Shown here: positions 175 through 33,408 of the stretch, piece by piece | Layout: each line of letters opens with the position of its first letter | Position numbering within the stretch: position 1 is the stretch's first letter | Origin: an uncultured Thermotogae bacterium | GTDB taxonomy: Bacteria > Bipolaricaulota > Bipolaricaulia > UBA7950 > UBA9294 | DNA length: 46,014 bases | Assembly: GCA_964582975.1 (NCBI GenBank) | Contig: CAZOUO010000004.1 | Location: 1 to 46,014 of the forward strand | Direction: 5' to 3' | Program-made: the position numbers and the translations under genes | The notes under the pieces: model-generated | What the model saw: the letters and a program-made list of their open reading frames with translations, nothing else | What the model was told of the DNA's origin: nothing | The model's database searches: none

Positions 175-2220
175 ATGAGACGTTCGGTTACCATGGTTAT
201 TTTATCGATAAGTAGGCTTTGCAAAACTGCTTGGCGACTGGATCCATATCGGCGACTCTGTCTGAAAGCACCAGAAAACCGCAGGGCTCTGCGATTAACG
301 GTCGTGGTGATCGGACTTTTCTTTCTGCTGACTCATGCAGCGATTGCTGCTTTTCCATTCCCACAGCGTGCCCCAGTGAATCCAGAGTACGTTAAGTACA
401 AAGAAACGCTTCGCACAATGGCGTACTGGAGGTTTCAAACGGAAGAAGGCTACGCGCTTGGTCTTGTTCCAAGCCCGGTTGACTTCAGCCGCGTGACGGC
501 GACGCCGATTCGTGAGGTTTCTCCACGCGATGTTCTTTCGTTGCCATCAAGCTACGATCTGCGGACTCTCGGAAGGGTTACTGCAGTCAGGGATCAGGGT
601 GGATGCGGCTCCTGTTGGGCGTTTGGGGCGATAGCGTCTCTTGAGTCGTGGCTGCTCACCGCCGCGGTCGGGGCTTGGGACCTGTCCGAGAACAACTTCA
701 AGGAGTGCCACGGCTTTGCCTACGGCCCGTGCGAAGGCGGAAACCGCTTCATGAGCACCGCCTATTTTGCCAGACGCAGTGGACCGGTCAGTGAAGCGGA
801 TGACCCCTATTATCCTTACGCGACTGGGTGCACAGCCGGGCTGACTGTTCGCAAGTTTCTTAGGGACGTTTCGATGCCCCCAAACAGGACAGGTTCTTTG
901 GATAACGACACCATCAAGCAGGTGGTGATGGATTACGGCGCGATGTACACGGGCATGTACTGGGAGAGTGCTTACTATCGATCCGACGAAAGCACCTACT
1001 ACTATCCAGGAACGTTGGGAAGCAACCACGCTGTCGCCATCGTCGGGTGGGACGACAACTTTGACCGAACTCTCTTTGCCTCGCAGGCCCCGGCTTCGCT
1101 ACCACCTGAGGATGGCGCGTGGATTGTCCGAAACAGCTGGGGATCTGGCTGGGGGGATGGTGGGTACTTTTACGCGTCGTACTACGACAGCAAGATCGGC
1201 AGAGGTAATGCAGTCTTCATTAATGCCACCGATCCTGACGCAACAGAGTTGTATCAGTACGATTCACTGGGCTGGGTCACCAACTGGGGTTATTCCTCCA
1301 ACACGGCATGGGGCGCCAATGTTTTCACCGCTTCTTCAAACGGGAGCATCACCGCGGTGGCAACGTACGCTTCGACGAGCAATACGGCGTATGAGATCAT
1401 GGTTAAGGATGGGTTAAATGGGAGTGTTCTGGCCAGCAAGACAGGCACGTGGCCGTTTGCCGGCTATCACACCGTCGATCTTGCCACGCCAGTGTCAATC
1501 TCATTAGGCGATACCTTCGTCATTGCTGTTAGGTACACCACGCCAGGCTACAACTACCCAGTTCCTGCCGAGTGCGTGGATTCGTGGTACTCTCCCGCCG
1601 CCACGGCCAACCCCGGAGAAAGCTACATCAGCTCGGATGGCAACACCTGGTCGGACATTGTCACTGCCACGTGGGGTGACCCCACCTGCAACATCTGTAT
1701 CAAGGCGATCGTCTCACCGGGTCCCAGTACCGCAGTCTTCCGCGTCGACAAAACAGGAAACGTCTACGCCGAAGGATCCTACTACGGCGCCGGGTTCTAC
1801 ACCGGCTCAGCGGACGTGGCAGAATGGGTCCCCGTGAGCGAGGAGGTGGAACCAGGCGATGTCCTGGAGCTTGATCCGGATAATCCCGGCCACTATCGAA
1901 AGACGCGCGGTCCCTGTTCTACACTTGTGGGGGGCGTAGTCTCGACAGACCCCGGCGTCGTCCTCGGTTCTTCCCCGACTCTGGACATTGGACCTTCGAC
2001 TTTGGACTCAGCGCTTTTAGCGCTGCTCGGCATCGTACCCGTGAAGGTGACCGACGAGGGTGGACCGATCGAGCCGGGGGATCTCCTCGTCACCTCATCG
2101 CTGCCAGGCTTTGCCATGAAGCGGAATCCTGCCAGCACAGCATCCTGTGATCTGGTTGGCAAGGCATTGGAGTCTCACAGGTCTGGCATGGGCCTCATTC
2201 GCGTTCTCCTGATGCATTAA
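175..2220 (+). CDS. Secreted papain-like (C1A) cysteine protease with lectin-like domain and shared C-terminal ADVAE domain
   Basis: Catalytic motifs QGGCGSCWAF (Cys), SNHAVAIVGW (His) and VRNSWG (Asn); hydrophobic signal-like segment LTVVVIGLFFLLTHAAIA; YQYD..GW lectin-like domain. True start may be downstream of 175. Confidence 0.9.
   Translation: MRRSVTMVILSISRLCKTAWRLDPYRRLCLKAPENRRALRLTVVVIGLFFLLTHAAIAAFPFPQRAPVNPEYVKYKETLRTMAYWRFQTEEGYALGLVPSPVDFSRVTATPIREVSPRDVLSLPSSYDLRTLGRVTAVRDQGGCGSCWAFGAIASLESWLLTAAVGAWDLSENNFKECHGFAYGPCEGGNRFMSTAYFARRSGPVSEADDPYYPYATGCTAGLTVRKFLRDVSMPPNRTGSLDNDTIKQVVMDYGAMYTGMYWESAYYRSDESTYYYPGTLGSNHAVAIVGWDDNFDRTLFASQAPASLPPEDGAWIVRNSWGSGWGDGGYFYASYYDSKIGRGNAVFINATDPDATELYQYDSLGWVTNWGYSSNTAWGANVFTASSNGSITAVATYASTSNTAYEIMVKDGLNGSVLASKTGTWPFAGYHTVDLATPVSISLGDTFVIAVRYTTPGYNYPVPAECVDSWYSPAATANPGESYISSDGNTWSDIVTATWGDPTCNICIKAIVSPGPSTAVFRVDKTGNVYAEGSYYGAGFYTGSADVAEWVPVSEEVEPGDVLELDPDNPGHYRKTRGPCSTLVGGVVSTDPGVVLGSSPTLDIGPSTLDSALLALLGIVPVKVTDEGGPIEPGDLLVTSSLPGFAMKRNPASTASCDLVGKALESHRSGMGLIRVLLMH
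1732..2217 (+). repeat. Shared C-terminal domain, copy 1 (VFRVDK..GSADVAEW..GIVPVKV..GDLLV..GKALE)
   Basis: Highly similar at nucleotide level to 3921-4409 and at protein level to 12974-13462. Confidence 0.9.
1973..2007 (+). repeat. Degenerate heptamer array (5 units, NNNNGAC) inside coding sequence
   Basis: ccccgac tctggac attggac cttcgac tttggac. Confidence 0.75.
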
Positions 2221-2267
2221 AGCGAACCTTTGGCCACGGTGAAGTGTATCAATTACAGGAGGATGCC

Positions 2268-4412
2268 ATGAGGTGGAAGCGTATGCAGGGATTGACCGGT
2301 GCGGGGATAATCCTAGTGCTCTTGGCGGTGCAAGCAATTGGCGGCGCTAGGAATGCCTCCGCTTTCATCCCTCGAGATGAGATTCATCCTCGCTTGGAGA
2401 CGGTCCTTCAGGCCCTTGCACGCACGGCACAAGTTGGTCCGGCCGCGTTGGCTGATTTTGCTCGGGGCAGGGGAATCCCTTTGACTGATGAGACGGTTCG
2501 GGTGGTTATTGAGCCGGTTTCTGGAGCCGTATCCGCTATTGACCGCGCAGCGGTTGCAGCGTTGGGTGGGGTAATTGAAGCAAGCTCTGAAAGTTTGATG
2601 CGGGTGCGAGTTCCGGTTGGCCGACTAGAGCAGGTTGCTGATCGCGTTGAGGGGATCGTGTTCATCCGCTTGCCCTACCAACCACGGCCTTTGGTGACGA
2701 GCCAGGGAGTAGAGCTCACAGGAGCGTCCGATTTCCATGGCGCTGGCTACTACGGGCAGAACACCAGGGTGGCAGTCATCGATTTGGGGTTCATTGGCCT
2801 CACCGCGGCGCAGAATGCCGGTGAGCTCGACAACGTGGTCTACACGCACGACTTTGGGTCCGGCGGGGTAGAGAGTTATACGTCTCATGGGACCGCTGTC
2901 GCGGAAATCGTGGCCGACATGGCCCCTCAGGCCTCCCTTTACCTCATGAAGGTCGATGATGAAGTCGATCTGCAAAACGCTGTCACTTACTGCGTTAACA
3001 ACGGAATCGACATCGTCAATCACTCCGTTGGGTGGTACAACACCAACTACTACGACGGCACCGGTACAGTAGCAGGGGCTGCCAATACTGCTCGTGATAA
3101 TGGAATCCTGTGGGTGAACGCAGCGGGAAACGACGCCGACGGTGTCGCTGGGTATACCGGTCACTGGCAGGGTGCTTTTGCCGATGGCGATGGAGACAAC
3201 TGGCACGACTTCGCGGCCGGAGATGAGAGGAACAGCTTCTATCTTGCCTTGGGAGAGACCGTTGATATCTACATGACATGGGATGATTGGGAATTCAGCG
3301 CCCAAGATTATGACCTATATCTCTACGATCCGGGTGGAGGCGAAGTCGACTGGTCTGAAAATGTGCAGGACGGGTCTCAGCATCCCACAGAATGGATTGA
3401 GTACACTACGACGACCAGTGGGTACCATTCCTTCGCCATCTATCGTTGGAATGCCCCGGCGAGCCCAGAAATTGAGGTCTTCTTGTGGAACAACACTGGC
3501 ACGGCGCTTGGGCTTGAACACAACGTCTACGAAAGCAGCATCGTCACCCCTGGCAACTCATCTAAGGTCATGGCTGTCGGAGCGATTCACCGTGGCAATT
3601 GGACGACCGGTCCCCAGGAGACGTACAGCTCTCAAGGGCCGTCCAATGCGAGCAAGTACGCTTCAAGCCGGATCAAACCGGATATCATGGGCCCAGACAG
3701 TGTGTCCAATTACACCTACGGCGGATTTGCGGGCACCTCAGCCTCTTCACCCCATGTCGCGGGAGCGGCGGCGTTGCTGCTTTCCGAGGACCCGACAAGG
3801 ACGGCCGACCAACTCCGAACAAAGCTGGAGGCAGACGCCATTGATATGGGAACTTCGGGCAAAGACAACATCTATGGATCGGGCCGGCTGAATATGCAGC
3901 TCGTGTCCTCTGGAACAGAGGCGGTCTTTCGCGTCGACAAAGTAGGCAATGTCTACGCCGATGGCTCTTTCTACGGTGCCGGCTTCTACACCGGCTCGGC
4001 CGATGTCGCCGAATGGGTCCCCGTGAACGAGGAGGTGGAACCCGGCGATGTCCTGGAGCTCGATCCCGATAATCCGGGCCACTACCGAAAGACGTGCAGT
4101 CCCTGTTCCACGCTTGTGGGGGGCGTGGTCTCGACAGACCCCGGCATTGTCCTTGGATTGCCGTCCGAGACTCCCGACTCAGGACTCCCGACTCAAGATA
4201 TGGCCCTTCTTGCGCTGCTCGGCATCGTACCCGTGAAGGTGACCGACGAGGGTGGACCGATCGAGCCGGGGGATCTATTGGTTACGTCTGGCACTCCAGG
4301 CCATGCTATGCGTTGGGATCCAGAGAATAAAGGCATCTGTGATTTTGTCGGCAAGGCCTTGGGTCCCCTACAAGAAGGCACGGGAACGATTCGCGCCCTG
4401 TTGATGCGATAA
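2268..4412 (+). CDS. Secreted S8 subtilisin-like serine protease with shared C-terminal ADVAE domain
   Basis: VAVIDLGF (Asp), SHGTAVA (His), FAGTSASSPHVAG (Ser); signal peptide; GGAGG before ATG 2268. Confidence 0.92.
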   Translation: MRWKRMQGLTGAGIILVLLAVQAIGGARNASAFIPRDEIHPRLETVLQALARTAQVGPAALADFARGRGIPLTDETVRVVIEPVSGAVSAIDRAAVAALGGVIEASSESLMRVRVPVGRLEQVADRVEGIVFIRLPYQPRPLVTSQGVELTGASDFHGAGYYGQNTRVAVIDLGFIGLTAAQNAGELDNVVYTHDFGSGGVESYTSHGTAVAEIVADMAPQASLYLMKVDDEVDLQNAVTYCVNNGIDIVNHSVGWYNTNYYDGTGTVAGAANTARDNGILWVNAAGNDADGVAGYTGHWQGAFADGDGDNWHDFAAGDERNSFYLALGETVDIYMTWDDWEFSAQDYDLYLYDPGGGEVDWSENVQDGSQHPTEWIEYTTTTSGYHSFAIYRWNAPASPEIEVFLWNNTGTALGLEHNVYESSIVTPGNSSKVMAVGAIHRGNWTTGPQETYSSQGPSNASKYASSRIKPDIMGPDSVSNYTYGGFAGTSASSPHVAGAAALLLSEDPTRTADQLRTKLEADAIDMGTSGKDNIYGSGRLNMQLVSSGTEAVFRVDKVGNVYADGSFYGAGFYTGSADVAEWVPVNEEVEPGDVLELDPDNPGHYRKTCSPCSTLVGGVVSTDPGIVLGLPSETPDSGLPTQDMALLALLGIVPVKVTDEGGPIEPGDLLVTSGTPGHAMRWDPENKGICDFVGKALGPLQEGTGTIRALLMR
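3921..4409 (+). repeat. Shared C-terminal domain, copy 2
   Basis: Near-identical to 1732-2217 apart from the variable loop and the last ~40 codons. Confidence 0.9.
4165..4199 (+). repeat. Degenerate heptamer array (5 units) inside coding sequence
   Basis: ccgagac tcccgac tcaggac tcccgac tcaagat, at the same position in the domain as 1973-2007. Confidence 0.75.
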
Positions 4413-4573: not shown

Positions 4574-5443
4574 ATGGAGGAAAAAGAGGATAAAGCGGCA
4601 TTGCGAGAGCTTGAGCTCCTCGAGGCGCTGGCCGAGAATCCAGAAGCCCGGCAGGTGGATCTCGCCACGCGCCTCGGGGTAGCCGTGGGAACAGTTAACT
4701 GGCTGCTCAAGCGCCTATCAACGAAAGGATATGTCAAAATCAAGCGAATCGGACGCTGGCAATGGCGGTACCTCCTCACCCCCCGGGGCTTTGCGGAGAA
4801 ATCGCGGCTGACCCAGCGGTATCTTAAGAACTCCATGACCCTCTACCGAAAGACGCGCCAGGAGGCCCGCCGGCTCCTGGGTGCTTTACGGGAGAGCGGG
4901 TATAACCAGGTGTGCCTGGAAGGCGATCCGGAGAACGATCTGCTGGACGTCTGCCGCCTGACGTGTCTTGAACAGGAGATAGCGATCGCTAAGGCTGGAA
5001 ACCCTTTAGCCGATGGGGAAGTGCCAACATTACGGGTGGTAGGGCAGGAGCTAACACTCGCAGGGCCGCAAGGAAAGCCACCATCCAGACAGGGAGAGCA
5101 AGGACGGAAAATCGATCAGCGGCTTTCTGAGGTCATCGAGCGAATTGTCGAGGTTGCCCAGCCGGAGAAGATCATTCTCTTCGGTTCTGCGGCGCGTGGG
5201 AAAATGGGGCGAAACAGCGATTTGGATCTGCTGGTCGTAAAGTCTGGAGACTACCATAAGGGTCGCCTGACTGGCGAGATCTATATGCATCTAATCGGGG
5301 TGGGCCAGGCCGTCGATGTGGTTCTCGTGACTCCAGAGGATGTCGACCGATATCGAAACTCGCATCCTCTCGTAATAAAACCCGCTCTGCAGGAGGGGAA
5401 GGTCGTCTATGAACGCGAGCCCGAAACGATATCCGCCGGATGA
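4574..5443 (+). CDS. MarR-like (EPS-associated) winged-helix regulator fused to a minimal nucleotidyltransferase (MNT) domain
   Basis: N-terminal ARQVDLATRLGVAVGTVNWLLKRL..YLLTPRGFAEK; C-terminal IILFGSAARG..SDLDLLVV (GS-x10-DxD). Confidence 0.85.
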   Translation: MEEKEDKAALRELELLEALAENPEARQVDLATRLGVAVGTVNWLLKRLSTKGYVKIKRIGRWQWRYLLTPRGFAEKSRLTQRYLKNSMTLYRKTRQEARRLLGALRESGYNQVCLEGDPENDLLDVCRLTCLEQEIAIAKAGNPLADGEVPTLRVVGQELTLAGPQGKPPSRQGEQGRKIDQRLSEVIERIVEVAQPEKIILFGSAARGKMGRNSDLDLLVVKSGDYHKGRLTGEIYMHLIGVGQAVDVVLVTPEDVDRYRNSHPLVIKPALQEGKVVYEREPETISAG

Positions 5444-5816
5444 CCCCCGGGAGTGGCTGAACCGGGCACGGAGCAACTTGTTGCTGGCAGAGAGCGAGAA
5501 AGGGGATGTGTATCTGGAAGATCTCTGTTTTCATGCGCAGCAAGCTGCCGAAAAGGCGGTCAAGGCATTGCTGATTCATCGGGAAGTGGAGTATCCCTAT
5601 GCCCATGATCTTGCAGAGCTCTTGACCCTTCTACAGCTGGCTGGACTGGACCTTCCCGAATCGGTTAGGAAAGCCTCGAAACTCACACGTTTTGCCATTG
5701 TAACCCGTTACCCTGGCACCCAGGGGCCGGTCGCGCAGGAAGAGTATGAAGAAGCAATATCCGCTGCTGAAGAAGTGGTGCAATGGGTAGAAAGACAAGT
5801 GGGCAGTGAAGCGTAA
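5409..5816 (+). CDS. HEPN domain protein (partner of the MNT domain)
   Basis: CFHAQQAAEKAVKA, HDL and TRYP motifs; overlaps the MNT gene end. Confidence 0.88.
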   Translation: MNASPKRYPPDDPREWLNRARSNLLLAESEKGDVYLEDLCFHAQQAAEKAVKALLIHREVEYPYAHDLAELLTLLQLAGLDLPESVRKASKLTRFAIVTRYPGTQGPVAQEEYEEAISAAEEVVQWVERQVGSEA

Positions 5817-6308: not shown

Positions 6309-6767
6309 GCGCTAGAGCAAAGCTGAGAGGCTTTGCTTCTTAGGTGCTGAGGGAGAGGACAAAAGACTGAGAAGATGTTGTTGGCATGTTTGTCAAAGTT
6401 ATTGAAATGAAAGACATGATATTTAAAAATTGTTTGTCATTGGGATGAATGCTACTTGGTAAGATTTGTTCAGCTTAAGGGTGGTATTGTGGCTTGTGTA
6501 CCGCGGCTAAGGAGGTTGCTAGATCAATCTTAGGATTCACTCGCTATTTGAAAGAGACGTTCCTCACTATCTTATGTGGATAGCTAACCGCAGTCAATCC
6601 TCTCTCGGCGTATGGGAGCTGACATTGGTAGTTTGGCTCGCTTGAGATGAGCAATTCCAGAATTTGCTTTTCCTTCCTTTATGGAAGTAGCAAGGGGGGG
6701 TGAGGAACTAACTTTTTCGGGAAGGTAGGTAGGCTTGGACGGAAATTTATCTAGAAGTGAAGGAGAT

Positions 6768-8078
6768 ATGGACAATCTTCTCAGTAAGATAAAGGCCGAG
6801 AAGGCAAAAATTGCTGTTATCGGCCTGGGCTATGTTGGTCTCCCTCTGGCGGTGGAGAAGGCCAAGGCCGGATTCCAGGTCGTGGGCATCGAGCGCAAGA
6901 AAGAGCGGGTCGATAAGGTCAATCGGGGAGAGAATTACATCCCCGATGTCCTTGATATCGAGTTGAAGGAGGTAGTCCAGAAGAAGCGGCTCTGGGCCAC
7001 CCAGAGCTTCGAGGTGGTCAAAGACGTCGATATCGTGACCATCTGCGTGCCCACCCCCTTAGACAAGAACAAGAATCCAGATACGAGTTACATCCAATAC
7101 GTGGTGGAGCAATCACTGCCCTACCTCCATCCTGGCCAGTTGATGGTTCTGGAGAGCACTACCTATCCCGGCACCACCGAGGAGATTATCCTCCCTCGGA
7201 TCGTCAGTCGAGGGTTCAAGGTCGGTGAAGATTTCTACCTGGCTTTCTCCCCGGAGCGGGTCGATCCCGGAAATAAGAAATACAAGGTGGCTAACACCCC
7301 CAAGGTGGTGGGCGGAGTCAGCCGTGAGTGTACTGAGGTGGCTAAAGCGTTATACGAACAGGTCGTTAAGGGAGGGATCCACACGGTCACCTCACCTAAG
7401 GTTGCGGAGATGGGAAAGCTCTTTGAGAATGTCTTCCGCATTGTCAACATCTCGTTGGTGGACGAGCTGGCGATGCTCTGTGAGCGGATGGGGATCGACG
7501 TCTGGGAAGTCATTGATGCCGCCAAGACGAAGCCCTTCGGGTTCATGCCTTTCTATCCAGGTCCCGGTCTAGGCGGACACTGCATCCCGTTGGATCCCTT
7601 CTATCTCTCCTGGAAGGCCAAGGAGTATGGTTTCCCCACCAGGTTCGTCGAGCTTGCCGGTGAGATCAACGATAAAATGCCGAGATACGTGGCCGAGAGG
7701 GTGTTGGAACTCTTGAATGAGCAGGGGAAGCCTCTGAAGGGTTCCCGCCTCCTGATGCTAGGGATGGCCTACAAGCGTGACGTGGACGATCTCCGGGAGT
7801 CCCCGGCGATCAAGGTGGCAAGGCTACTCCAAGAGCGAGGAGCTGAGCTTTCATACCATGATCCTTATGTTCCCATAGTTGAGATCAATGGTTTGGAATA
7901 TCGCTCGGTCAACCTCGCTCCTGAAATCCTTGAGAAGAGTGATCTAGTCCTGATAACCACGGACCATTCCAACGTGGACTATTCTGCGGTCGTAGAGCAT
8001 GCAGGGCTAATCTATGACACTAGAAACGCGTTAAAAGACTACAATTCTGATAAGATTTATAAGTTGGGGGCGTCATGA
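6768..8078 (+). CDS. UDP-N-acetylhexosamine 6-dehydrogenase (WbpA/WbpO/WecC-like)
   Basis: GLGYVG, ICVPTP, ESTTYPGTTEE, FSPERVDPGN, GGHCIP, YKRDVDDLRESP; AGGAG before ATG 6768. Confidence 0.92.
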   Translation: MDNLLSKIKAEKAKIAVIGLGYVGLPLAVEKAKAGFQVVGIERKKERVDKVNRGENYIPDVLDIELKEVVQKKRLWATQSFEVVKDVDIVTICVPTPLDKNKNPDTSYIQYVVEQSLPYLHPGQLMVLESTTYPGTTEEIILPRIVSRGFKVGEDFYLAFSPERVDPGNKKYKVANTPKVVGGVSRECTEVAKALYEQVVKGGIHTVTSPKVAEMGKLFENVFRIVNISLVDELAMLCERMGIDVWEVIDAAKTKPFGFMPFYPGPGLGGHCIPLDPFYLSWKAKEYGFPTRFVELAGEINDKMPRYVAERVLELLNEQGKPLKGSRLLMLGMAYKRDVDDLRESPAIKVARLLQERGAELSYHDPYVPIVEINGLEYRSVNLAPEILEKSDLVLITTDHSNVDYSAVVEHAGLIYDTRNALKDYNSDKIYKLGAS

Positions 8079-9070
8079 GGGTAGCGATCGTCGGCGCGGG
8101 AAACTGGGGGAAGCATCTGTTAAGGAATTTCTGCGAGCTCCTGGGCGAAGAGGATGTCATTGTGAGCGACATTGATGAGAAAAGGCTTAAGGAAGCGAAA
8201 GCCCAGCATGTGGGTATCGTCGTTACCCAGGACTTCGATAACTTGCTCATGGATAGAAGAATTGATGCCGTGGTCATTGCAACTCCTGTGGTGACCCACT
8301 TCGAGCTGGCTAAGAAGGCTCTAGAGGCAGGGAAGCACGTCCTGGTGGAGAAGCCGATCTCCTTGGATATCGATGAAGCCATGGAGCTAGTCAAGTTGGC
8401 AAGAAGAACCGGTAGAACACTAATGGTAGACCATCTCCTGGAATACCATCCGGTGGTGGAGGAGATGAAGCGGCGGATCGACTCTGGGGAGTTCGGGGAG
8501 ATCTATTATCTCTACTGCCAGCGGCTCAACCTGGGAGTCATAAGGACAGAAGAGAATGCCCTGTGGAGCGTTGGGCCGCACGATATCTCTGTAATATTGT
8601 ACTTGCTCGGCAAAGAGCCGATACGCGTATCCGCTCACGGAGGTGTCTATCTGCAAAAAGAGGAGGGCATTGACGATGTGGTCTTCTTGAACTTGGAGTT
8701 CAATAACGGAGTGCGGGCTCACTCCCACCTAAGTTGGCTTAATCCTTGCAAGATAAGAAAGATCACGGTGATAGGTAGCGAAAAGATGATGGTCTTTGAT
8801 GATCTGGCCCCGGAGAAGCTAAAAATCTTCGATAGGAGGGCGGAACGAGTGGAAGGAGGTTTTCAGCTTCATGCCGGAGGGACCTATGCGATTGAGTTTA
8901 ACTTAGAGGAAGAGCCCCTGAAGCGCATGGCCACGCACTTCCTGGAATCCATCAAGGATAACACTGCTCCAAGGAGCGACGGCCGAGATGGGCTACAGGT
9001 TTTGCAGGTGCTGGCCGCAGCCCAGAGATCCTTGGAGAAGGGCGGGAGGACCGTCGAGCCGGAGAGCTAA
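8075..9070 (+). CDS. Gfo/Idh/MocA oxidoreductase (WbpB-like 3-dehydrogenase)
   Basis: GAGNWG, IATP..H, GKHVLVEKP; ATGA overlap with the upstream gene. Confidence 0.88.
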   Translation: MRVAIVGAGNWGKHLLRNFCELLGEEDVIVSDIDEKRLKEAKAQHVGIVVTQDFDNLLMDRRIDAVVIATPVVTHFELAKKALEAGKHVLVEKPISLDIDEAMELVKLARRTGRTLMVDHLLEYHPVVEEMKRRIDSGEFGEIYYLYCQRLNLGVIRTEENALWSVGPHDISVILYLLGKEPIRVSAHGGVYLQKEEGIDDVVFLNLEFNNGVRAHSHLSWLNPCKIRKITVIGSEKMMVFDDLAPEKLKIFDRRAERVEGGFQLHAGGTYAIEFNLEEEPLKRMATHFLESIKDNTAPRSDGRDGLQVLQVLAAAQRSLEKGGRTVEPES

Positions 9071-9664
9071 ATGGCAGATAATGATTACTTCGTTCACGAA
9101 TCGGCATATGTCGATGAGCCAGTCAAGATAGGCAAGGGCACCAAGATCTGGCACTTTTCCCACGTCATGCACAGCGTGCGAATCGGGCGAAACTGCATGC
9201 TGGGACAGAATGTACTCGTTGGTCCGAACGTGACAATTGGCAACAACGTGAAGATTCAAAACAACGTCTCCGTCTACGAGGGCGTCACCCTCGAAGACGA
9301 TGTCTTCTGCGGGCCCTCGATGGTCTTCACTAACGTCGATATGCCTAGATCAGCTTATCCCCGGGAGCATAGTGAGTATCTGGAGACCGTGGTCAAGTGC
9401 GGGGCAACGATCGGGGCCAATGCTACGATCATCTGTGGCCATACCATCGGGGCTCATGCCTTCATCGGCGCTGGGGCAGTCGTGGCCAAAGATATCCCCG
9501 ACTATGCCCTGGTCTACGGCAATCCGGCCAGGATCAGGGGCTGGGTCTGCGAATGCGGAGCCCCGCTGGCGTTCAGCCGAGGTCGGGCCACTTGTGAAGC
9601 GTGCGGTAGAGGGTATCGGAAGAGAGGCGAGAAGGTGGAGCCGACTGGAGTTCGCAGTGCGTAG
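9071..9664 (+). CDS. wbpD: Hexapeptide-repeat N-acetyltransferase (WbpD/WlbB-like)
   Basis: KIWHFSHV, KIQNNVSVYEGV, FCGPSMVFTN, GNPARIRGWVCECG. Confidence 0.9.
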   Translation: MADNDYFVHESAYVDEPVKIGKGTKIWHFSHVMHSVRIGRNCMLGQNVLVGPNVTIGNNVKIQNNVSVYEGVTLEDDVFCGPSMVFTNVDMPRSAYPREHSEYLETVVKCGATIGANATIICGHTIGAHAFIGAGAVVAKDIPDYALVYGNPARIRGWVCECGAPLAFSRGRATCEACGRGYRKRGEKVEPTGVRSA

Positions 9665-9680
9665 TGCGCAGTTCGCAGTT
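9650..9680 (+). repeat. Heptamer array GTKCGYA x4 (left arm)
   Basis: gttcgca gtgcgta gtgcgca gttcgca gtt; reverse complement of the array at 10150-10177. Confidence 0.85.
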
Positions 9681-9728
9681 GACGGAGAGAACCCCAGAGG
9701 CCGCGGAACCGTCTGGTGAGAGGGGCTT

Positions 9729-10097
9729 ATGAAGATTGAGCGATTCGAGGACATCGAAGCTTGGAAGGCAGCCCGAGTTCTCGGTTCGCAAGTATATGAG
9801 TTGGGTCGTAAGTCCGGGTTGAGGAGGGACTTCGGGTTGCGCGATCAGGTTCAGCGAGCCGCCGTCTCCATCATGGCCAATATAGCTGAAGGATTCGACT
9901 CCCGCTCGAATCAGGAATTCCTCCGCTTCCTTGGCTATGCCTATCGGTCGGCGACCGAGCTGCAATCCCACTTGTACGTGGCCGTGGATCAGTCGTACGT
10001 GGACCAAGAGGGATTCGACAAGCTATATCAACAGACAGCGAAGGTTCACAAGCTTCTTAACGGATTCATACGTTATCTGAAGGAAGGCAGGGAATGA
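9729..10097 (+). CDS. Four helix bundle protein (TIGR02436 / 23S rRNA IVP, Avd-like fold)
   Basis: FEDIEAW..A, LRDQVQRAAVSIMANIAEG, EFLRFL..A..S..E signature. Confidence 0.92.
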   Translation: MKIERFEDIEAWKAARVLGSQVYELGRKSGLRRDFGLRDQVQRAAVSIMANIAEGFDSRSNQEFLRFLGYAYRSATELQSHLYVAVDQSYVDQEGFDKLYQQTAKVHKLLNGFIRYLKEGRE

Positions 10098-10149
10098 AGC
10101 TGCGAGCTGGAACGGAGATTCGGCATCGACAATCCGGAAATCAAATGAC

Positions 10150-10177
10150 CGCGAACTGCGAACCACGAACAGCGAAC
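10150..10177 (+). repeat. Heptamer array NRCGAAC x4 (right arm)
   Basis: cgcgaac tgcgaac cacgaac agcgaac. Confidence 0.88.
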
Positions 10178-10191
10178 CAAAGGGAGAAGAC

Positions 10192-11421
10192 ATGAAGATT
10201 CCGACGCTCGATCTCGTCCGCCAGTACGAGTCGATTCGCGAAGAGATGGACGATGCGATCCTCGAGGTCGTGCGTTCGGGCAAGTTCGTGCTCGGCCCGT
10301 TCGTTCGGGCGTTTGAGGAGGCCGCCGCCGAATATTGCGGTGTGAGGCACGCCATCGGCGTCGCTAGCGGCACCGACGCCCTCCTTCTCTCACTGAAGGC
10401 GCTGGGGATTGGCTCCGGGGACGGCGTCATCATTCCCAGCTTCACCTTCTTCGCCACCGCCGGCGTCGTTTACAACATTGGGGGCACGCCCGTCTTCGCT
10501 GACATCGACCCCAAGACTTTCAACCTCGATCCCGAAGATGTCAGAAGGATTCTGACTGCGCACCATGAACTACGAACTGCGAACCATAAACCACTCACCG
10601 AAATCAAAGCCATCATCCCCGTTCACCTGTACGGTCAAATGGCCGACATGGACGAGATCACGGCAATCGCGCAGGAGTACGATCTTGCCGTCATCGAAGA
10701 CGCTGCCCAAGCCATCGGCGCGACGTATTCCAGTAAGATGGGAGGCAACCGCGAAGCACAAGCTTCCGGTCACAAACCGCGAACCGCGAACCGCGAACCG
10801 GTTATCAAAGCTGGCACTATTGGCCGTCTTGGCTGCTTCAGCTTCTACCCCACCAAGAACCTGGGCGCTTACGGTGACGGCGGGATGGTAATCACCAACG
10901 ATGACGAGCTGGCCGAGCGGATGAGGCTTCTCCGAGTCCATGGCTCGAAGCCAAAGTATTATCACCACATCGTTGGAGCGAACAGTAGGCTGGATGCCCT
11001 TCAGGCGGCCATCCTGAGAGCGAAGCTGCCTCATCTCGATCAGTGGTCTCAGGCCCGGCGGGAGAGGGCCGCTTATTACGACCAGCTCCTCAATGACGTA
11101 GAGGGAATTGAGACTCCCTATGTGGCTTCTGACCGGACTCATATCTACCATCAGTACACTATCCGGGTAAAGGACGGCAGGAGGGACAAGCTCCGGGTAT
11201 ATCTCAAGGAGCGGGGCATTGGGACGGAGGTTTACTACCCTTTGCCATTGCATCTACAGGAATGCTTTAGCGATTTGGGATATCACGAGGGAGACCTTCG
11301 GGAATCGGAGTGGGCGAGTCGGGAAGTATTGTCGCTTCCGGTTTTTCCCGAACTCAAAGAAAAGGAGCTGGCTTACGTGATTAAGCATGTGCAAGCTTTC
11401 AGTAGTAAGTCCGATAGTTAA
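10192..11421 (+). CDS. DegT/DnrJ/EryC1/StrS aminotransferase (WbpE-like) with two repeat-derived loop insertions
   Basis: SGTDAL, PVHLYGQ, IEDAAQA, SFYPTKNLGAYGDGG, NSRLDALQAA. Confidence 0.93.
   Translation: MKIPTLDLVRQYESIREEMDDAILEVVRSGKFVLGPFVRAFEEAAAEYCGVRHAIGVASGTDALLLSLKALGIGSGDGVIIPSFTFFATAGVVYNIGGTPVFADIDPKTFNLDPEDVRRILTAHHELRTANHKPLTEIKAIIPVHLYGQMADMDEITAIAQEYDLAVIEDAAQAIGATYSSKMGGNREAQASGHKPRTANREPVIKAGTIGRLGCFSFYPTKNLGAYGDGGMVITNDDELAERMRLLRVHGSKPKYYHHIVGANSRLDALQAAILRAKLPHLDQWSQARRERAAYYDQLLNDVEGIETPYVASDRTHIYHQYTIRVKDGRRDKLRVYLKERGIGTEVYYPLPLHLQECFSDLGYHEGDLRESEWASREVLSLPVFPELKEKELAYVIKHVQAFSSKSDS
10557..10598 (+). repeat. In-frame heptamer array (6 units, 42 nt) in the aminotransferase
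   Basis: tgcgcac catgaac tacgaac tgcgaac cataaac cactcac. Confidence 0.85.
10743..10798 (+). repeat. Second heptamer array in the aminotransferase
   Basis: aggcaac cgcgaag cacaagc ttccggt cacaaac cgcgaac cgcgaac cgcgaac (last four units are clear). Confidence 0.8.
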
Positions 11422-11782
11422 TTCCATGGGCTTATGGAAATTATAGATTTTACTTAATCTTAATAATATTTCCATAGATGACGAATGATCACGAGCCAGG
11501 GGCCCGGGATTGCGCTTCAAGGGTGGACGGGTCAAGTGAGCAATATCATGAGTGTCCCCAGAGACTTTGATACGAGCATCCGATGACAACTCATCGGGCC
11601 GGAATCCTGTCTAATTCGATCATGAGAAGTCTATTTGTGTCCGTTCCTGACGTGGTTATTCAGAAAGGCGACCAACTTGTCCCGAGAGGTGAGAGTAGTT
11701 GCTGGTTTGGATCTGAAAAACTAGTACAGCTCTAGAATGACAGATAAGAAATAGAAGACGAAGACATACGGAGGTGTACAAG

Positions 11783-13465
11783 ATGAAACGTTGGCTGGTA
11801 GGCTGGAAGCTTTGGAGTGCTCTGAGTGGGATCATCATAGCTGCGGTCTTAATTCCGGTGCTCGCAAGTAGTACGGAGAAAGACATGACTCTCACCAGCT
11901 TTGCAGACGTGATTCGCTTTGAGGCCGAGGGGATTGCGAGTCTGCGGGTTTGTATCTTCGACCTTTCCGGACGCGAATTATGGAGCTCTGGAGTTGTCTC
12001 AAGCAAAATCGTTGATTGGAACAGGACTAACGAGTGGGGGGAACGTTTGGCATACGGAGCATATTTGTATGTCGCAGATGGCTGGAGTGCAGATGGAGTT
12101 CTTGTCCTCCAGAAGAAGGGAAAGCTTGTGCTTTTCCCTGGCGGTCGCTTTCAGCACCCAGTTGCGCCACCAGTTGCTCCACCTGGTGGGGAAGAAGATA
12201 GTCCCCCTTCATCTGGAGATGGAGATGCACCTTTCAGACCCATGGCCCAAATTGGAACACTTAGTGACACGGGTATCTTTGGCCAAGTGGGAATTGGTAC
12301 GACGAGTCCGGTACAGATGTTTGATGTGGCGGGTAAGGTTGTAATTGATGGGATTAATGGACGTCTTGGGATAGGGACTACCACACCAGAATATGACTTG
12401 AAAGTGGTGGGGGCGAATGCGGGACTTTACTTAGAGAGAACTGACGGGATTCACGAGGCATTCATTCTTATGAGAAGCAACTCTGGAGGAGGTCAATTAA
12501 GAGGCCTTTTGAACGGTGGTATTAGGTTTATGGATTGGCAGGCAGCTAGGGAGTGGGTGAGAATTGATAATTCTGGCAACGTTGGCATTGGTACGTTAAG
12601 TCCGGTACAGATGTTAGATGTGGCGGGTAAGGTTGTAATTGATGGGATTAATGGACGTCTTGGGATAGGGACTACCACACCAGAATATGACTTGAAAGTG
12701 GTGGGGGCGAATGCGGGACTTTACTTAGAGAGAACTGACGGGATTCACGAGGCATTCATTCTTATGAAGGGCACCTCTGGGGGAGGTCAGTTAAGAGGCT
12801 TATTAGACGGTGGTATTAGGTTTATGAATTGGCAAGCGAGCAGAGAGTGGGTGAGAATTGATAATTCTGGGAACGTTGGCATCGGTACTACCACCCCGAG
12901 CGCGAGCTTGGAGGTTCACGGCTCTACAAGCAATCTGCTTGCACTCTATGATCCTGTTGCTCCTGCAGACCCCAAGTTTAGGGTGACCAAAACCGGCGAA
13001 GTCCGTGCCGATGGCTCTTACTACGGAGCTGGAGGTGTTTACTCAGGTGGAGCAGACGTTGCCGAACGTATCAATGCCAGCGAATGGGTAGAGATGGGTA
13101 ACGTTGTGGAGATCGATCCCGACCATCCGGGCTTCTTCCGGAAGGCGCGCTCTCCATATAGCACCAAAGTGGCAGGGATCATATCAACTTCACCAGGAGT
13201 TGTTTTAGGGAATAGCTTTGACTCAGCCACAGACAAGTGGGCGGACAACCGACCAATGATAGCCATTGCCGGCCGAGTACCAGTGAGAGTAGTCACAGAG
13301 AATGGGCCTATAAGATTAGGAGATCTTCTAGTCAGTTCATCTCAGTCTGGATATGCAATGCGATGTGGTGTGAAAAGTACATATGTAGGCGCAGTGATCG
13401 GCAAAGCTCTGGAACCATTGACCGAGGAAAGTGGGACTATTATGGTTCAGGTAATGTTGCGTTAA
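11783..13465 (+). CDS. Secreted fibre-like protein: signal peptide, FlgD/T9SS-like Ig domain, Pro linker, GNVGIGTTxP repeats, C-terminal ADVAE domain
   Basis: IFDLSGREL..W....G..LAYGAYLY; five GIGT repeats; GGADVAE..GRVPVRV..GDLLVSS..IGKALE; GGAGG before ATG 11783. Confidence 0.8.
   Translation: MKRWLVGWKLWSALSGIIIAAVLIPVLASSTEKDMTLTSFADVIRFEAEGIASLRVCIFDLSGRELWSSGVVSSKIVDWNRTNEWGERLAYGAYLYVADGWSADGVLVLQKKGKLVLFPGGRFQHPVAPPVAPPGGEEDSPPSSGDGDAPFRPMAQIGTLSDTGIFGQVGIGTTSPVQMFDVAGKVVIDGINGRLGIGTTTPEYDLKVVGANAGLYLERTDGIHEAFILMRSNSGGGQLRGLLNGGIRFMDWQAAREWVRIDNSGNVGIGTLSPVQMLDVAGKVVIDGINGRLGIGTTTPEYDLKVVGANAGLYLERTDGIHEAFILMKGTSGGGQLRGLLDGGIRFMNWQASREWVRIDNSGNVGIGTTTPSASLEVHGSTSNLLALYDPVAPADPKFRVTKTGEVRADGSYYGAGGVYSGGADVAERINASEWVEMGNVVEIDPDHPGFFRKARSPYSTKVAGIISTSPGVVLGNSFDSATDKWADNRPMIAIAGRVPVRVVTENGPIRLGDLLVSSSQSGYAMRCGVKSTYVGAVIGKALEPLTEESGTIMVQVMLR
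12305..12892 (+). repeat. In-frame tandem duplication, 294 bp (98 aa) x2
   Basis: 12305-12598 vs 12599-12892; first ~169 bp differ at one position by eye. Confidence 0.92.
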
Positions 13466-32289: not shown

Positions 32290-33408
32290 ATGATGGATAC
32301 AGCGTGGAAGGTTCGGTTTGTGGATTATCCGGCGCAGTTCCAGAAGATGGGAAACGAGATCATGGAAACCCTGAACATCGTGCTGAGTCGGGGTGATCTT
32401 ATCCTTCGTCAGCAATTGCAAGAGTTTGAGGAACACTTGGCTGATTTTGTTGGGACAAAATATGCAGTTGGTGTCAGTAATGGTACCGATGCTCTGCATT
32501 TAGCATTACGTGCAGTTGGAGTAGGTCCGGGGGATGAAGTCATTACTGTCTCGCATACGTTTGTGGCCACTGCAGCAGCGATCCACCATGCAGGTGCCAC
32601 GCCCGTCTTGATAGACATCGATGATGATCACAACATGAATGTCGATCTTGTTGAGGCTGCTATCACCTCGCACACTAGGGCGATTATGCCAGTCCATCTG
32701 AATGGGCGGTTATGCGACATGGGGAGGCTCATGGAAATTGCAGAAAAGCATGATCTCTTGGTCATTGAGGATGCAGCGCAGGCGTTGGGAGCCTCTTTTC
32801 AAGGAACGAAGGCTGGTGCGTTTGGCTTGACTGGTTGTTTCAGCTTCTATCCTGCTAAGCTGCTGGGGTGTTTTGGGGACGGCGGTGCGGTGGTGACGAA
32901 TAGCAAGCAAATCGCTGACGGGATAAAACGATTGCGCCATCACGGCCTTACAGAAGAGGGAGAAGTGTCCTGCTGGGCGTTCAATTGTCGATTGGACAAC
33001 CTCCAAGCGGCACTTCTTGATTTGAAGCTTAAACAATTGCCCAAGTGGATCGCTAGAAGGCGAGAAATAGCCCAAATCTATCATAACCAATTGTCTGAGA
33101 TTGGCCAGCTCAATCTGCCACCCCCGCCGGCAGATGGGCCTTTTTTTGATGTATATCAGAACTACGAGGTGGAAGCGGTGAATCGTGACCGGCTCGTGGC
33201 GCATCTGAAGCAATCTTGCGTCGAAGTGTTGGTACAGTTTGGTGGCAAAGCCGTGCACCATTTCAAGGCCCTTGGACTGGTGCACTTCAGGCTCCCACGC
33301 ACCGAGTGGATGTCAGAGCGGGCGCTTATGCTGCCGATGCATCCAGAGCTTGGCGATGACCAAGTGGAATACGTAACAGATGTCATCGCTCACTTTTACT
33401 CCGAGTGA
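32290..33408 (+). CDS. DegT/DnrJ/EryC1/StrS aminotransferase
   Basis: NGTDAL, PVHLNG, IEDAAQA, SFYPAKLLG. Confidence 0.93.
   Translation: MMDTAWKVRFVDYPAQFQKMGNEIMETLNIVLSRGDLILRQQLQEFEEHLADFVGTKYAVGVSNGTDALHLALRAVGVGPGDEVITVSHTFVATAAAIHHAGATPVLIDIDDDHNMNVDLVEAAITSHTRAIMPVHLNGRLCDMGRLMEIAEKHDLLVIEDAAQALGASFQGTKAGAFGLTGCFSFYPAKLLGCFGDGGAVVTNSKQIADGIKRLRHHGLTEEGEVSCWAFNCRLDNLQAALLDLKLKQLPKWIARRREIAQIYHNQLSEIGQLNLPPPPADGPFFDVYQNYEVEAVNRDRLVAHLKQSCVEVLVQFGGKAVHHFKALGLVHFRLPRTEWMSERALMLPMHPELGDDQVEYVTDVIAHFYSE

What the first reader, a model, noticed from the sequence alone, without database searches (positions are those of the whole stretch)
10557..10798. The same heptamers have invaded the adjacent aminotransferase as two in-frame loop insertions
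Seen: relative to the paralog at 32290-33408, this DegT has ~13 extra residues before KAIIPVHL (AHHELRTANHKPLT, six heptamers = 42 nt). It has ~23 extra residues before KAG (..GHKPRTANREP, including cgcgaac x3). Units match the right-arm array 400-600 bp upstream in sequence and orientation, and the frame is preserved. Inference: local directional seeding of repeats, retained only when in frame. Gain or loss of one 7-nt unit would frameshift the gene, offering phase variation of the surface sugar.
Basis: partly seen in the sequence, partly recalled or inferred. Interest (0 to 1): 0.75.

Follow-up and report, generated by a model that had tools for sequence, protein, structure and literature searches.

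The report
Repeat-built loop insertions in a sugar aminotransferase
Two surface loops of a sugar aminotransferase are made of the same 7-base repeats that flank a small neighbouring gene cassette, apparently tolerated selfish DNA and not a genetic on/off switch.

Summary
The DegT/WbpE-like gene (10192-11421) has two in-frame insertions that its paralog, 72 orthologues from other phyla and the solved structures lack. Both are registers of 7-nt units of the NNCGAAC type (10557-10598 and 10743-10798). The units match the right arm of the upstream PF05635 four-helix cassette in type and orientation.

Orthologues change the picture. Across Candidatus Bipolaricaulota the same two slots hold hypervariable repeat-coded peptides. 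Site 2 is filled in 85 of 120 database homologues. Site 1 lengths run 10, 17, 24, 31 aa, which is steps of three 7-nt units.

The unit type in the gene usually follows the arms of that genome's own cassette: CGAAC, CGGAC, GACTC, GTGG/CACAAG or 9-mers. In two genomes whose DegT flanks are 91-96% identical, the cassettes are unrelated and both slots carry different repeats.

Inserts go with the cassette: 11 of 12 loci with it and 2 of 12 without it. Few of these contrasts are phylogenetically independent.

The inserts fall in low-confidence coil of the model.

Local seeding with retention in frame is supported. Phase variation is not: only three perfect units, no out-of-frame allele seen, and some lineages use 9-mers. 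The mechanism of spread is unknown.

The parts
10192..11421 (+). DegT/WbpE-like PLP sugar aminotransferase carrying the two inserts
   Evidence: PF01041 E 2.4e-124. The model aligns to DesV 2oga with Z 42.7, 357 residues aligned, rmsd 2.1, and to WbpE 3nu7 with Z 39.2. The lysine of the FSFYPTKNL motif is invariant in 39 orthologues.
10557..10598 (+). Site-1 array: six 7-nt units, coding part of TAHHELRTANHKPLT
   Evidence: Sequence. 13-aa gap against the paralog. pLDDT under 50 at residues 125-129 and 131-133.
10743..10798 (+). Site-2 array: eight 7-nt units in register, the last three perfect CGCGAAC (10778-10798)
   Evidence: 23-aa gap against the paralog. pLDDT under 50 at residues 183-203.
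10148..10179 (+). Right arm of the four-helix cassette, NNCGAAC units, directly upstream of the DegT ribosome-binding site
   Evidence: TRF. Pairs with the left arm in the MFE and centroid folds.
9649..9680 (+). Left arm of the cassette (GTTCGCA-type units, reverse complement of the right arm). It contains the stop codon of the upstream acetyltransferase.
   Evidence: TRF 4.6 copies.
9729..10097 (+). Four-helix-bundle gene (PF05635, 23S_rRNA_IVP), the cargo of the cassette
   Evidence: E 6e-32. It is the only copy found in this assembly.
9071..9664 (+). Hexapeptide acetyltransferase (WbpD-like), the upstream neighbour. In cassette-free relatives it abuts DegT.

Best explanation
The two inserts are satellite repeat arrays of the neighbouring PF05635 four-helix cassette. 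This cassette resembles an rRNA intervening sequence: a small ORF enclosed by two inverted arrays of about 7-nt units that can pair. The inserts are translated as disordered surface loops of a still intact WbpE-like aminotransferase.

Shown:
- The arrays occupy two fixed slots, after RRILT and after (E/T)Y, that are shared across the phylum.
- The slot content is hypervariable.
- The content usually carries the unit type, period and orientation of the cassette arms in the same genome.
- In some lineages each insert is a left-type array, a spacer and a right-type array. That is a cassette without cargo, and it folds as a hairpin.

Inferred:
- Repeats spread from the arms into the slots over a few hundred bases by a non-reciprocal copying process such as template switching or conversion.
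- They then grow and shrink by slippage.
- Selection keeps only stop-free lengths divisible by three in loops where extra residues do no harm.

The arrays are best read as tolerated selfish or neutral DNA. They are not an adaptive device and not an on/off switch.
For: 1. Same slots, variable content. In 120 homologues of 59-72% identity, site 2 exceeds 5 aa in 85 and site 1 exceeds 11 aa in 64. Site 1 lengths are 10 (47 sequences), 17 (13), 24 (11) and 31 (1). Site 2 has modes at 3, 12, 19 and 26 aa.

2. The peptides are three-frame readings of 7-nt repeats, for example TNHEPRT, HKPQATS and RTANREP.

3. Arms and inserts agree within a genome:
- G000: CGAAC.
- G006: CGGAC.
- G071: CCACGGA/CCACGCA.
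- G161: ACGAAC.
- G045: GACTCNN in arms and both sites.
- G047 and G050: GTGG-type left part and CACAAG-type right part in arms and both sites.
- 9-mers: G169 in both arms and both sites, G150 in the right arm and both sites, G005 in the right arm and site 1.

4. G045 and G050 have DegT flanks 91-96% identical at the DNA level. Their four-helix proteins are only 32% identical, their arms are unrelated, and both slots differ and match each genome's own arms.

5. Independent loci. Among 30 other four-helix loci of the phylum, 26 have an array within 130 nt of the gene. Distal arrays match their own arm unit in 16 of 34 cases against 40 of 850 across loci. One such array is an in-frame insert (LTPHVSPLTPH) in an NAD-dependent epimerase downstream of a cassette with the same unit.

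6. Co-occurrence. A site-2 insert is present in 11 of 12 loci with the cassette and 2 of 12 without.

7. Permissive loops. The inserts are coil with pLDDT under 50 between helix 114-126 and strand 137-141, and between strands 178-180 and 204-206. In 72 orthologues of other phyla site 1 varies from 4 to 39 aa and site 2 from 3 to 9 aa.

8. Hairpin-type inserts fold well. L107 site 1 has z -4.8, L109 site 1 has z -3.7, and the cassette arms pair in the window.
Against: - The copying mechanism is not shown. When a cassette with unrelated arms replaces another, there is no homology to start ordinary gene conversion.
- G049 is a mosaic: arms GACTC-type, site 1 CGGAC/GACTC-type, site 2 GTGG/CACAAG-type. 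Its 3' half is closer to G050 (98-99% in some windows). Homologous exchange of blocks between lineages therefore explains part of the pattern.
- G125 keeps 7-nt-type inserts with no cassette or arm remnant upstream. G032 has a degenerate cassette and no site-2 insert.
- The co-occurrence rests on few independent events. One well-supported clade holds 7 of the insert-free loci, and the tree cannot exclude a single origin.
- The window's own inserts are one-armed. Site 1 has no predicted structure (z +0.7), so they are not miniature hairpin elements as they stand.
- GACTNNN arrays sit in frame in two peptidase-like genes of the window with no cassette beside them. Arrays can therefore exist away from a cassette.
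- Surface exposure was inferred from confidence and secondary structure, not computed. The model is only moderate (mean pLDDT 70).
Confidence: 0.6

Rival explanations
1. Phase-variable contingency locus. Slippage of one 7-nt unit in the CGCGAAC tract frameshifts DegT and switches the 2,3-diacetamido sugar pathway on and off.
For: A 7-nt unit inside an ORF would frameshift on gain or loss of one unit. The tract 10778-10798 is perfect. 7-nt repeats do drive phase variation elsewhere: H. influenzae HMW1A, title and abstract seen (PMC8262952).
Against: - Only three perfect units. Recalled, not tested: known switches usually have many more.
- None of the 31 orthologue matches in 29 genomes has an internal stop.
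- Length classes differ by 7 aa, that is by three units at a time.
- Three genomes use 9-nt units.
Confidence: 0.06
2. Unrelated simple-sequence expansion. Polymerase slippage builds 7-nt arrays on its own in any unconstrained stretch, and the likeness to the cassette arms is coincidence or a genome-wide bias.
For: 7-nt repeats are reported as the most abundant long SSR class in many bacteria (introductions of PMC4679880 and PMC4692102, passages read). The GACTNNN arrays in the peptidase-like genes lie 6 kb from the cassette.
Against: - In this assembly the NNNGAAC arrays with three or more units occur only at this locus.
- Cassettes within one genome have different units: G161, L096 against L125. 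The match is therefore local and not genome-wide.
- Own-locus matches are 16 of 34 against 40 of 850 across loci.
- The change of period to 9 nt is shared by arms and inserts.
Confidence: 0.1
3. Block exchange only. Arms and inserts agree because the whole segment (cassette plus the 5' half of DegT) is passed between lineages by homologous recombination, with no copying from arms into the gene.
For: G049 looks recombinant: its upstream part resembles G045, and parts of its 3' half are 98-99% identical to G050.
Against: - G045 and G050 are 91-96% identical on both sides of each slot and between the slots, yet differ in both slots. That would need several exact double crossovers at the slot borders.
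- It does not explain how slots and arms came to share a unit in the first place.
Confidence: 0.12
4. Selected protein feature. The repeat-coded loops serve the enzyme, for example as flexible tethers, in partner binding or for solubility.
For: The slots are filled in most members of the clade (85 of 120). The peptides are hydrophilic and rich in proline and threonine.
Against: - The sequences are not conserved even within a genus.
- Orthologues of 374-380 aa without inserts are common (35 of 120 have the 3-aa site 2).
- The same units occur in non-coding arms.
- The segments have low model confidence.
Confidence: 0.05

Closest known systems
Rickettsia palindromic elements (RPE): small repeats inserted in frame into protein-coding genes
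   Same: Selfish repeat DNA is translated as extra peptide segments in unrelated metabolic enzymes, at positions compatible with the fold (review PMC10969869, passage read). In several relatives the DegT inserts are palindromic hairpins.
   Different: RPEs are dispersed elements of about 150 bp with a conserved peptide and many copies per genome. Here the inserts are arrays of 7-nt (or 9-nt) units and are hypervariable. In this genome they occur only beside one cassette and share their unit with its arms. The window's own inserts are not palindromic.
23S rRNA intervening sequences carrying an S23p / PF05635 ORF (Coxiella, Leptospira)
   Same: The same cargo gene family, enclosed by complementary ends that can form a stem. 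Described as a selfish element (abstract of PMC4990558 seen).
   Different: The cassette lies in an intergenic spacer of a sugar operon, not in rRNA. Its ends are tandem arrays of short units. Copies of those units lie inside a neighbouring gene. No paper found or 54 describes this.
Bacterial heptanucleotide repeat arrays (cyanobacterial heptamers, Xanthomonas GGGAATC, Beggiatoaceae TAACTGA)
   Same: Tandem 7-nt units of a few copies, often as convergent inverted pairs (70 pairs in X. campestris). Function unknown (PMC4692102, passages; PMC4679880).
   Different: [quoted passage not shown] No link to PF05635 genes is mentioned in the passages read. Here the units are specific to a cassette and sit in frame in an enzyme.
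Simple-sequence contingency loci (phase variation)
   Same: A repeat unit that is not a multiple of three inside an ORF.
   Different: The tract is short and no off-frame alleles were seen. Length changes are in whole codon multiples.
Diversity-generating retroelements (the Avd accessory protein is a related four-helix bundle)
   Same: A four-helix-bundle gene lies next to a gene with a hypervariable segment. PF05635 is discussed together with DGRs in PMC10053308 (search listing only).
   Different: There is no reverse transcriptase in the window. The two RVT_1 hits of the assembly are on other contigs. There is no template/variable repeat pair. The variation is in repeat unit and number, not at adenines. 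The target is a cytoplasmic enzyme.

Membership tests
DegT/DnrJ/EryC1/StrS sugar aminotransferase (WbpE-like) | Pfam PF01041 over its cut-off along the full length | tested here: met
   415.6 bits against a cut-off of 19.8; residues 14-400 match profile positions 2-359 of 360.
DegT/DnrJ/EryC1/StrS sugar aminotransferase (WbpE-like) | Type-I aminotransferase fold with the PLP lysine | tested here: met
   Z 42.7 to DesV and 39.2 to WbpE. The lysine in FSFYPTKNL is invariant in 39 orthologues. That this is the Schiff-base lysine is recalled from the family, not tested.
DegT/DnrJ/EryC1/StrS sugar aminotransferase (WbpE-like) | WbpA/B/D/E-type operon for a 2,3-diacetamido uronic sugar | tested here: inconclusive
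   A UDP-sugar dehydrogenase, a GFO/IDH/MocA oxidoreductase and a hexapeptide acetyltransferase lie upstream. Substrate specificity was not tested.
Phase-variable contingency locus | Repeat unit not divisible by three inside the ORF | tested here: met
   7-nt units at 10557-10598 and 10743-10798.
Phase-variable contingency locus | Long perfect tract that slips at high rate | tested here: not met
   The longest perfect tract is 3.7 copies.
Phase-variable contingency locus | Out-of-frame alleles in populations or relatives | tested here: inconclusive
   0 of 31 orthologue matches have internal stops. Only assembled contigs were available, and they show one form.
MITE / RPE-like in-frame element | Terminal inverted repeats or a palindrome | tested here: not met
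   The window inserts are one-armed: site 1 has z +0.7, and site 2 has only small local stems. The feature is met in relatives L107, L109 and L099 (z -2.4 to -4.8).
MITE / RPE-like in-frame element | Many dispersed copies in the genome | tested here: not met
   Arrays with three or more NNNGAAC units occur only at this locus in a 79%-complete assembly.
MITE / RPE-like in-frame element | In-frame insertion at a structurally tolerant site | tested here: met
   The frame is kept. The inserts are coil with pLDDT under 50, and the loops vary in length in outgroups.
PF05635 intervening-sequence-type cassette (the neighbour, source of the units) | PF05635 ORF enclosed by complementary ends | tested here: met
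   E 6e-32. The arms pair in the MFE and centroid folds, about 23 pairs, although the whole fold has z -0.29.
PF05635 intervening-sequence-type cassette (the neighbour, source of the units) | Location inside 23S rRNA | tested here: not met
   It lies between two protein-coding genes of one operon.
Diversity-generating retroelement | Adjacent reverse transcriptase and a template/variable repeat pair | tested here: not met
   The RVT_1 matches are only on contigs C79 and C83. No long direct repeat pair was seen around the gene.

The most novel reading that the evidence does not exclude
PF05635 four-helix cassettes are an active repeat-writing system. Each cassette defines its own unit of about 7 nt and copies it, without needing homology, into its two inverted arms and into receptive slots of genes within about 1 kb. 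A cassette swap is then followed by overwriting of the old arrays, as in G045 against G050. The Avd-like four-helix protein would act with a polymerase or reverse transcriptase supplied in trans, by reiterative copying of a short template. This would also explain why PF05635 genes in other phyla each sit between inverted arrays with a copy-specific unit (16 of 18 loci, judged by eye).
Probability: 0.15. Interest if true: 0.9.

Novelty: new variant of a known kind. Interest (0 to 1): 0.62.

Why it matters
In-frame selfish repeats in enzymes are known from Rickettsia, and 7-nt arrays are known as unexplained bacterial repeats. This locus ties the two together and links them to PF05635 genes. That family is widespread and its function and way of spreading are unknown. 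It is found in rRNA intervening sequences and is related to the DGR accessory protein.

The DegT slots act as a natural recorder. Fixed borders, known flanks and many lineages with different units make it possible to ask which way repeats move, how fast, and whether the cassette is needed.

For annotation, repeat-coded peptides such as TNHEPRT, HKPQATS or NPTNPTN in Bipolaricaulota proteins should be read as repeat DNA and not as motifs. N-terminal extensions of this kind are probably cassette arms read as coding sequence.

Tried and rejected
- Earlier findings of the scan were not open.
- Read-level test for +/-7 nt. Only Logan contigs exist for three runs of one study. One contig of the probable source sample spans 9600-10900 with no difference, and no indel rows are listed. 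Contigs drop rare variants, so this says nothing either way. The 'joints' that skip 118-320 nt come from other organisms' homologues at low likeness.
- DGR or retroelement idea: no reverse transcriptase near the locus. Y1 transposases exist on other contigs, but nothing links them to the locus.
- Whole-cassette RNA fold: the arms pair, but the overall z-score is -0.29, so folding energy alone gives no support.
- Tree-based count of independent gains and losses. The DegT tree is poorly resolved: 10 of 24 inner branches are open, the label needs 5 changes, and the supported branches force only 1. The co-occurrence therefore cannot be given a meaningful P value. Rows dropped before the tree: duplicates L018, L023, L016, L020 and L006/L008, truncated L110, L005 and L015, and L106, which fell under my 57% identity filter.
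- A slip: my script made one of three four-helix queries (from L004) in the wrong frame. The locus was still found with the window's protein. The G006 row and column of the four-helix identity matrix are invalid and were ignored.
- Literature. Searches found no paper that links PF05635 or four-helix genes to 7-nt arrays, or that describes such repeats in Bipolaricaulota. Only listings and the passages named were read. Subscription journals are not covered.
Full report
**1. What is in the window**

The ORF 10192..11421 (+, 409 aa) is a full-length DegT/DnrJ/EryC1/StrS aminotransferase (PF01041, E 2.4e-124). It follows three genes:
- a UDP-sugar dehydrogenase (6735..8078);
- a GFO/IDH/MocA oxidoreductase (8075..9070);
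- a hexapeptide acetyltransferase (9071..9664).

This is the gene set of a WbpA/B/D/E-type pathway (the pathway name is recalled). Between the acetyltransferase and DegT lies a 122-aa PF05635 (23S_rRNA_IVP) four-helix-bundle gene (9729..10097, E 6e-32). It is the only copy in the 2.9-Mb, 79%-complete assembly. Names that sources give to close homologues place the organism in Candidatus Bipolaricaulota/Acetothermia.

**2.

In the three PDB alignments that were printed (7b0d, 2oga, 3frk) both segments are absent.

At the DNA level site 1 is six 7-nt units in register (10557-10598). Site 2 is eight units (10743-10798), ending in three perfect CGCGAAC. The cassette's right arm (10150-10177) has four units of the same NNCGAAC type on the same strand. 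The left arm (9649-9680) is their imperfect reverse complement and holds the acetyltransferase stop codon.

Chance does not give this:
- 8 matches to a two-unit pattern against 0.64 expected, with no shuffle of 100 reaching 8. One match lies inside the four-helix ORF.
- In the whole assembly the only 3 of 113 NNNGAAC runs with three or more units are the right arm and the two inserts.
- Five of the six period-7 arrays with at least 3.4 copies in the assembly lie in this window.

**3. Orthologues: fixed slots, hypervariable content**

The 120 best database homologues (59-72% identity) range from 374 to 621 aa. Aligned, the length differences fall mainly at the same two slots.
- Site 2 is 3 aa in 35 sequences and longer than 5 aa in 85, up to 57 aa.
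- Site 1 is 8-10 aa in 56 and longer than 11 aa in 64.
- Site 1 lengths run 10 (47), 17 (13), 24 (11), 31 (1). Site 2 has modes at 12, 19 and 26 aa. These are steps of 7 aa, or 21 nt, or three units. That is what in-frame retention of a 7-nt repeat predicts.
- The peptides (TNHEPRT, HKPQATS, RGKWPVASG, NPTNPTNS, HEPNKPNEL) are successive-frame readings of short DNA repeats.

In 72 orthologues from other phyla (45-55% identity) site 1 is mostly 4 aa (50 of 72, up to 39 aa) and site 2 is only 3-9 aa. None of these is repeat-like. The loops therefore tolerate changes in length, but the repeat filling is a feature of this phylum.

**4. The repeats in the gene follow the cassette next door**

I searched 184 genomes of the phylum and 29 have the orthologue. 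The order acetyltransferase, four-helix gene, DegT recurs in 12 genomes: G000, G005, G006, G032, G045, G047, G049, G050, G071, G150, G161 and G169. Unit types read from the DNA:

| Genome | Cassette arms | DegT slots |
|---|---|---|
| G000 | CGAAC | CGAAC, both sites |
| G006 | (GTCCGTA)x4 left, CGGAC right | CGGAC, both sites |
| G071 | CCACGGA/CCACGCA | same, both sites |
| G161 | ACGAAC | ACGAAC, both sites |
| G045 | GACTCNN | GACTCNN, both sites |
| G047, G050 | GTGG-type left, CACAAG-type right | each insert is a left-type array, a spacer and a right-type array |
| G169 | 9-nt units, both arms | 9-nt units, both sites |
| G150 | 9-nt units, right arm | 9-nt units, both sites |
| G005 | 9-nt units, right arm | 9-nt units at site 1 |

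The inserts of G047 and G050 are cassettes without cargo. They fold as hairpins (z -2.4 to -4.8).

The sharpest case is G045 against G050. DegT DNA is 91-96% identical on both sides of each slot and between the slots. The four-helix proteins are 32% identical and the arms are unrelated. Both slots differ and match each genome's own arms.

The exception is G049. Its arms are like G045 and its site 2 is like G050. Parts of its 3' half are 98-99% identical to G050, so recombination between lineages also plays a part.

**5. Co-occurrence with the cassette**

| Upstream context | Loci | With site-2 insert |
|---|---|---|
| Cassette present | 12 | 11 |
| Cassette absent | 12 | 2 |

- The one cassette locus without an insert is G032, whose four-helix ORF is degenerate.
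- Of the 12 cassette-free loci, 10 have the acetyltransferase abutting DegT. The other 2 have a different small insert in the spacer: a nucleotidyltransferase-like ORF in L114 and a pair that looks like HicA/HicB in L113. Those two names are by eye, not tested.
- The 2 cassette-free loci with an insert are G125 and G136. G125 has the same 7-nt-type inserts as its relative G071 and no trace of arms. G136 has a GC-rich insert that is not repetitive.
- Six further loci are cut upstream and were not counted.
- Seven of the insert-free loci form one supported clade, and the rest of the DegT tree is poorly resolved. Independent contrasts are therefore few.

**6. The same thing at other loci**

PF05635 genes occur in 87 of 184 genomes of the phylum, up to 11 per genome. 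Of 30 loci fetched, 26 have an array of 7-9-nt units within 130 nt of the gene. Arrays lying more than 150 nt away match the unit of their own cassette arm (up to 1 mismatch, any rotation or strand) in 16 of 34 cases, against 40 of 850 across loci. Three of the 30 loci are the DegT locus again, and L142 and L146 are homologous, so these counts are not independent.

One case is an in-frame insert (LTPHVSPLTPH) in an NAD-dependent epimerase/dehydratase just downstream of a cassette with the same CCTCAC unit.

Cassettes in one genome have different units (G161: L096 against L125). The match between arms and neighbouring gene is therefore local and not a genome-wide bias.

Outside the phylum, 16 of 18 PF05635 loci show inverted arrays of short units on both sides, each with its own unit. 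This was judged by eye. The loci come from a Desulfosarcina, a Sedimentisphaerales, a Fidelibacterota and a Tautonia genome.

**7. Place in the protein**

The AlphaFold model is moderate (mean pLDDT 70.2, pTM 0.73). It aligns to DesV with Z 42.7 (357 of 409 residues, rmsd 2.1) and to WbpE with Z 39.2. The segments with pLDDT under 50 include 125-129, 131-133 and 183-203, which are the inserts. Site 1 lies between helix 114-126 and strand 137-141. Site 2 lies at the turn between strands 178-180 and 204-206. The motif lysine and the EDAAQ motif are invariant in 39 orthologues. I chose those 39 from the 120 to span the lengths. Exposure was not computed. 'Surface loop' rests on these indirect signs.

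**8. How it most likely works**

Shown: fixed slots, repeat content, local agreement with the cassette arms, 21-nt length steps and intact frames.

Inferred: units are copied from the arms, or from a cassette without cargo, into the slots. They expand and contract by slippage. Selection removes every state that shifts the frame or brings a stop.

The copying step is the weak point. After a cassette with unrelated arms arrives there is no homology for ordinary conversion. Either a homology-independent process exists (the bold reading, which I put at about 0.15), or new miniature elements insert at the slots and the old arrays decay, or block recombination does more than it seems.

**9. Phase variation**

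Nothing supports it. There are only three perfect units. No orthologue match has an internal stop (0 of 31). Length classes differ by whole codon multiples. Three genomes use 9-nt units. It is not excluded, because no raw reads were available.

**10. Verdict**

The inserts are best described as in-frame satellite repeats of a PF05635 cassette in two permissive loops. They resemble Rickettsia palindromic elements in effect (PMC10969869, passage) and bacterial heptanucleotide arrays in form (PMC4692102 and PMC4679880, passages). The tie to a cassette and its arms was found in none of my four literature searches.

Noticed in passing
window 1977-2008 and 4169-4195: Arrays of GACTNNN 7-nt units (4.6 and 3.9 copies) lie in frame at the same loop of the homologous C-terminal domains of two peptidase-like ORFs (175..2220 and 2244..4412). 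The loop has the same length as in a third paralog (11774..13465) that has no repeats. GACTCNN is also the arm and insert unit at the DegT locus of genome G045.
   Followed up: partly
window 12293-12888: A 294-nt tandem duplication (2.0 copies, 93% matches) lies inside ORF 11774..13465 and duplicates a 98-aa segment.
   Followed up: no
L142 (G041:C29) and L146 (G087:C20): A four-helix cassette lies between a Fer4-dicluster ORF and a CCG-domain ORF on the same strand. As recalled, these two domains are usually parts of one protein. CGTGACG/GTGACGG arrays are scattered in frame through both ORFs.
   Followed up: partly
L114 602-931; L113 335-979: In two relatives the acetyltransferase-DegT spacer holds a different small insert instead of the four-helix gene: a nucleotidyltransferase-like ORF, or a pair that looks like HicB/HicA (by eye). 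The spacer seems to be a landing site for small selfish cassettes. Both DegT genes lack inserts.
   Followed up: partly
L154-L173 (Desulfosarcina, Sedimentisphaerales, Fidelibacterota, Tautonia genomes): PF05635 genes in other phyla are also flanked by inverted arrays of about 7-8-nt units, each copy with its own unit (16 of 18 loci by eye). This may be a general, undescribed architecture of the family.
   Followed up: partly
homologues P0012, P0019, P0036, P0054, P0055, P0078 (alignment A1, after GIGPGD): A third insertion slot is filled in 6 of 120 homologues. Its peptides, such as ARGI...IPRA, are the signature of a translated palindrome. Similar LPRAIP...ISRG text occurs at site 2 of some homologues. 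This is a second, hairpin-type repeat family in the same gene.
   Followed up: no
L106 (G150:C104): This DegT has 9-nt-repeat inserts at both slots and a right arm of about 14 nine-nt units. It also lacks 51 aa (query residues 291-342) in frame and may be decaying.
   Followed up: no
window 4574-5816: Two overlapping ORFs (4574..5443 and 5409..5816) look like a nucleotidyltransferase/HEPN-type pair by eye. No family search was run.
   Followed up: no
homologues P0024, P0028, P0038, P0051, P0059, P0119 (N-termini): The predicted N-terminal extensions made of NPTNPTNS-type repeats are probably the cassette's right arm read as coding sequence by gene callers.
   Followed up: no
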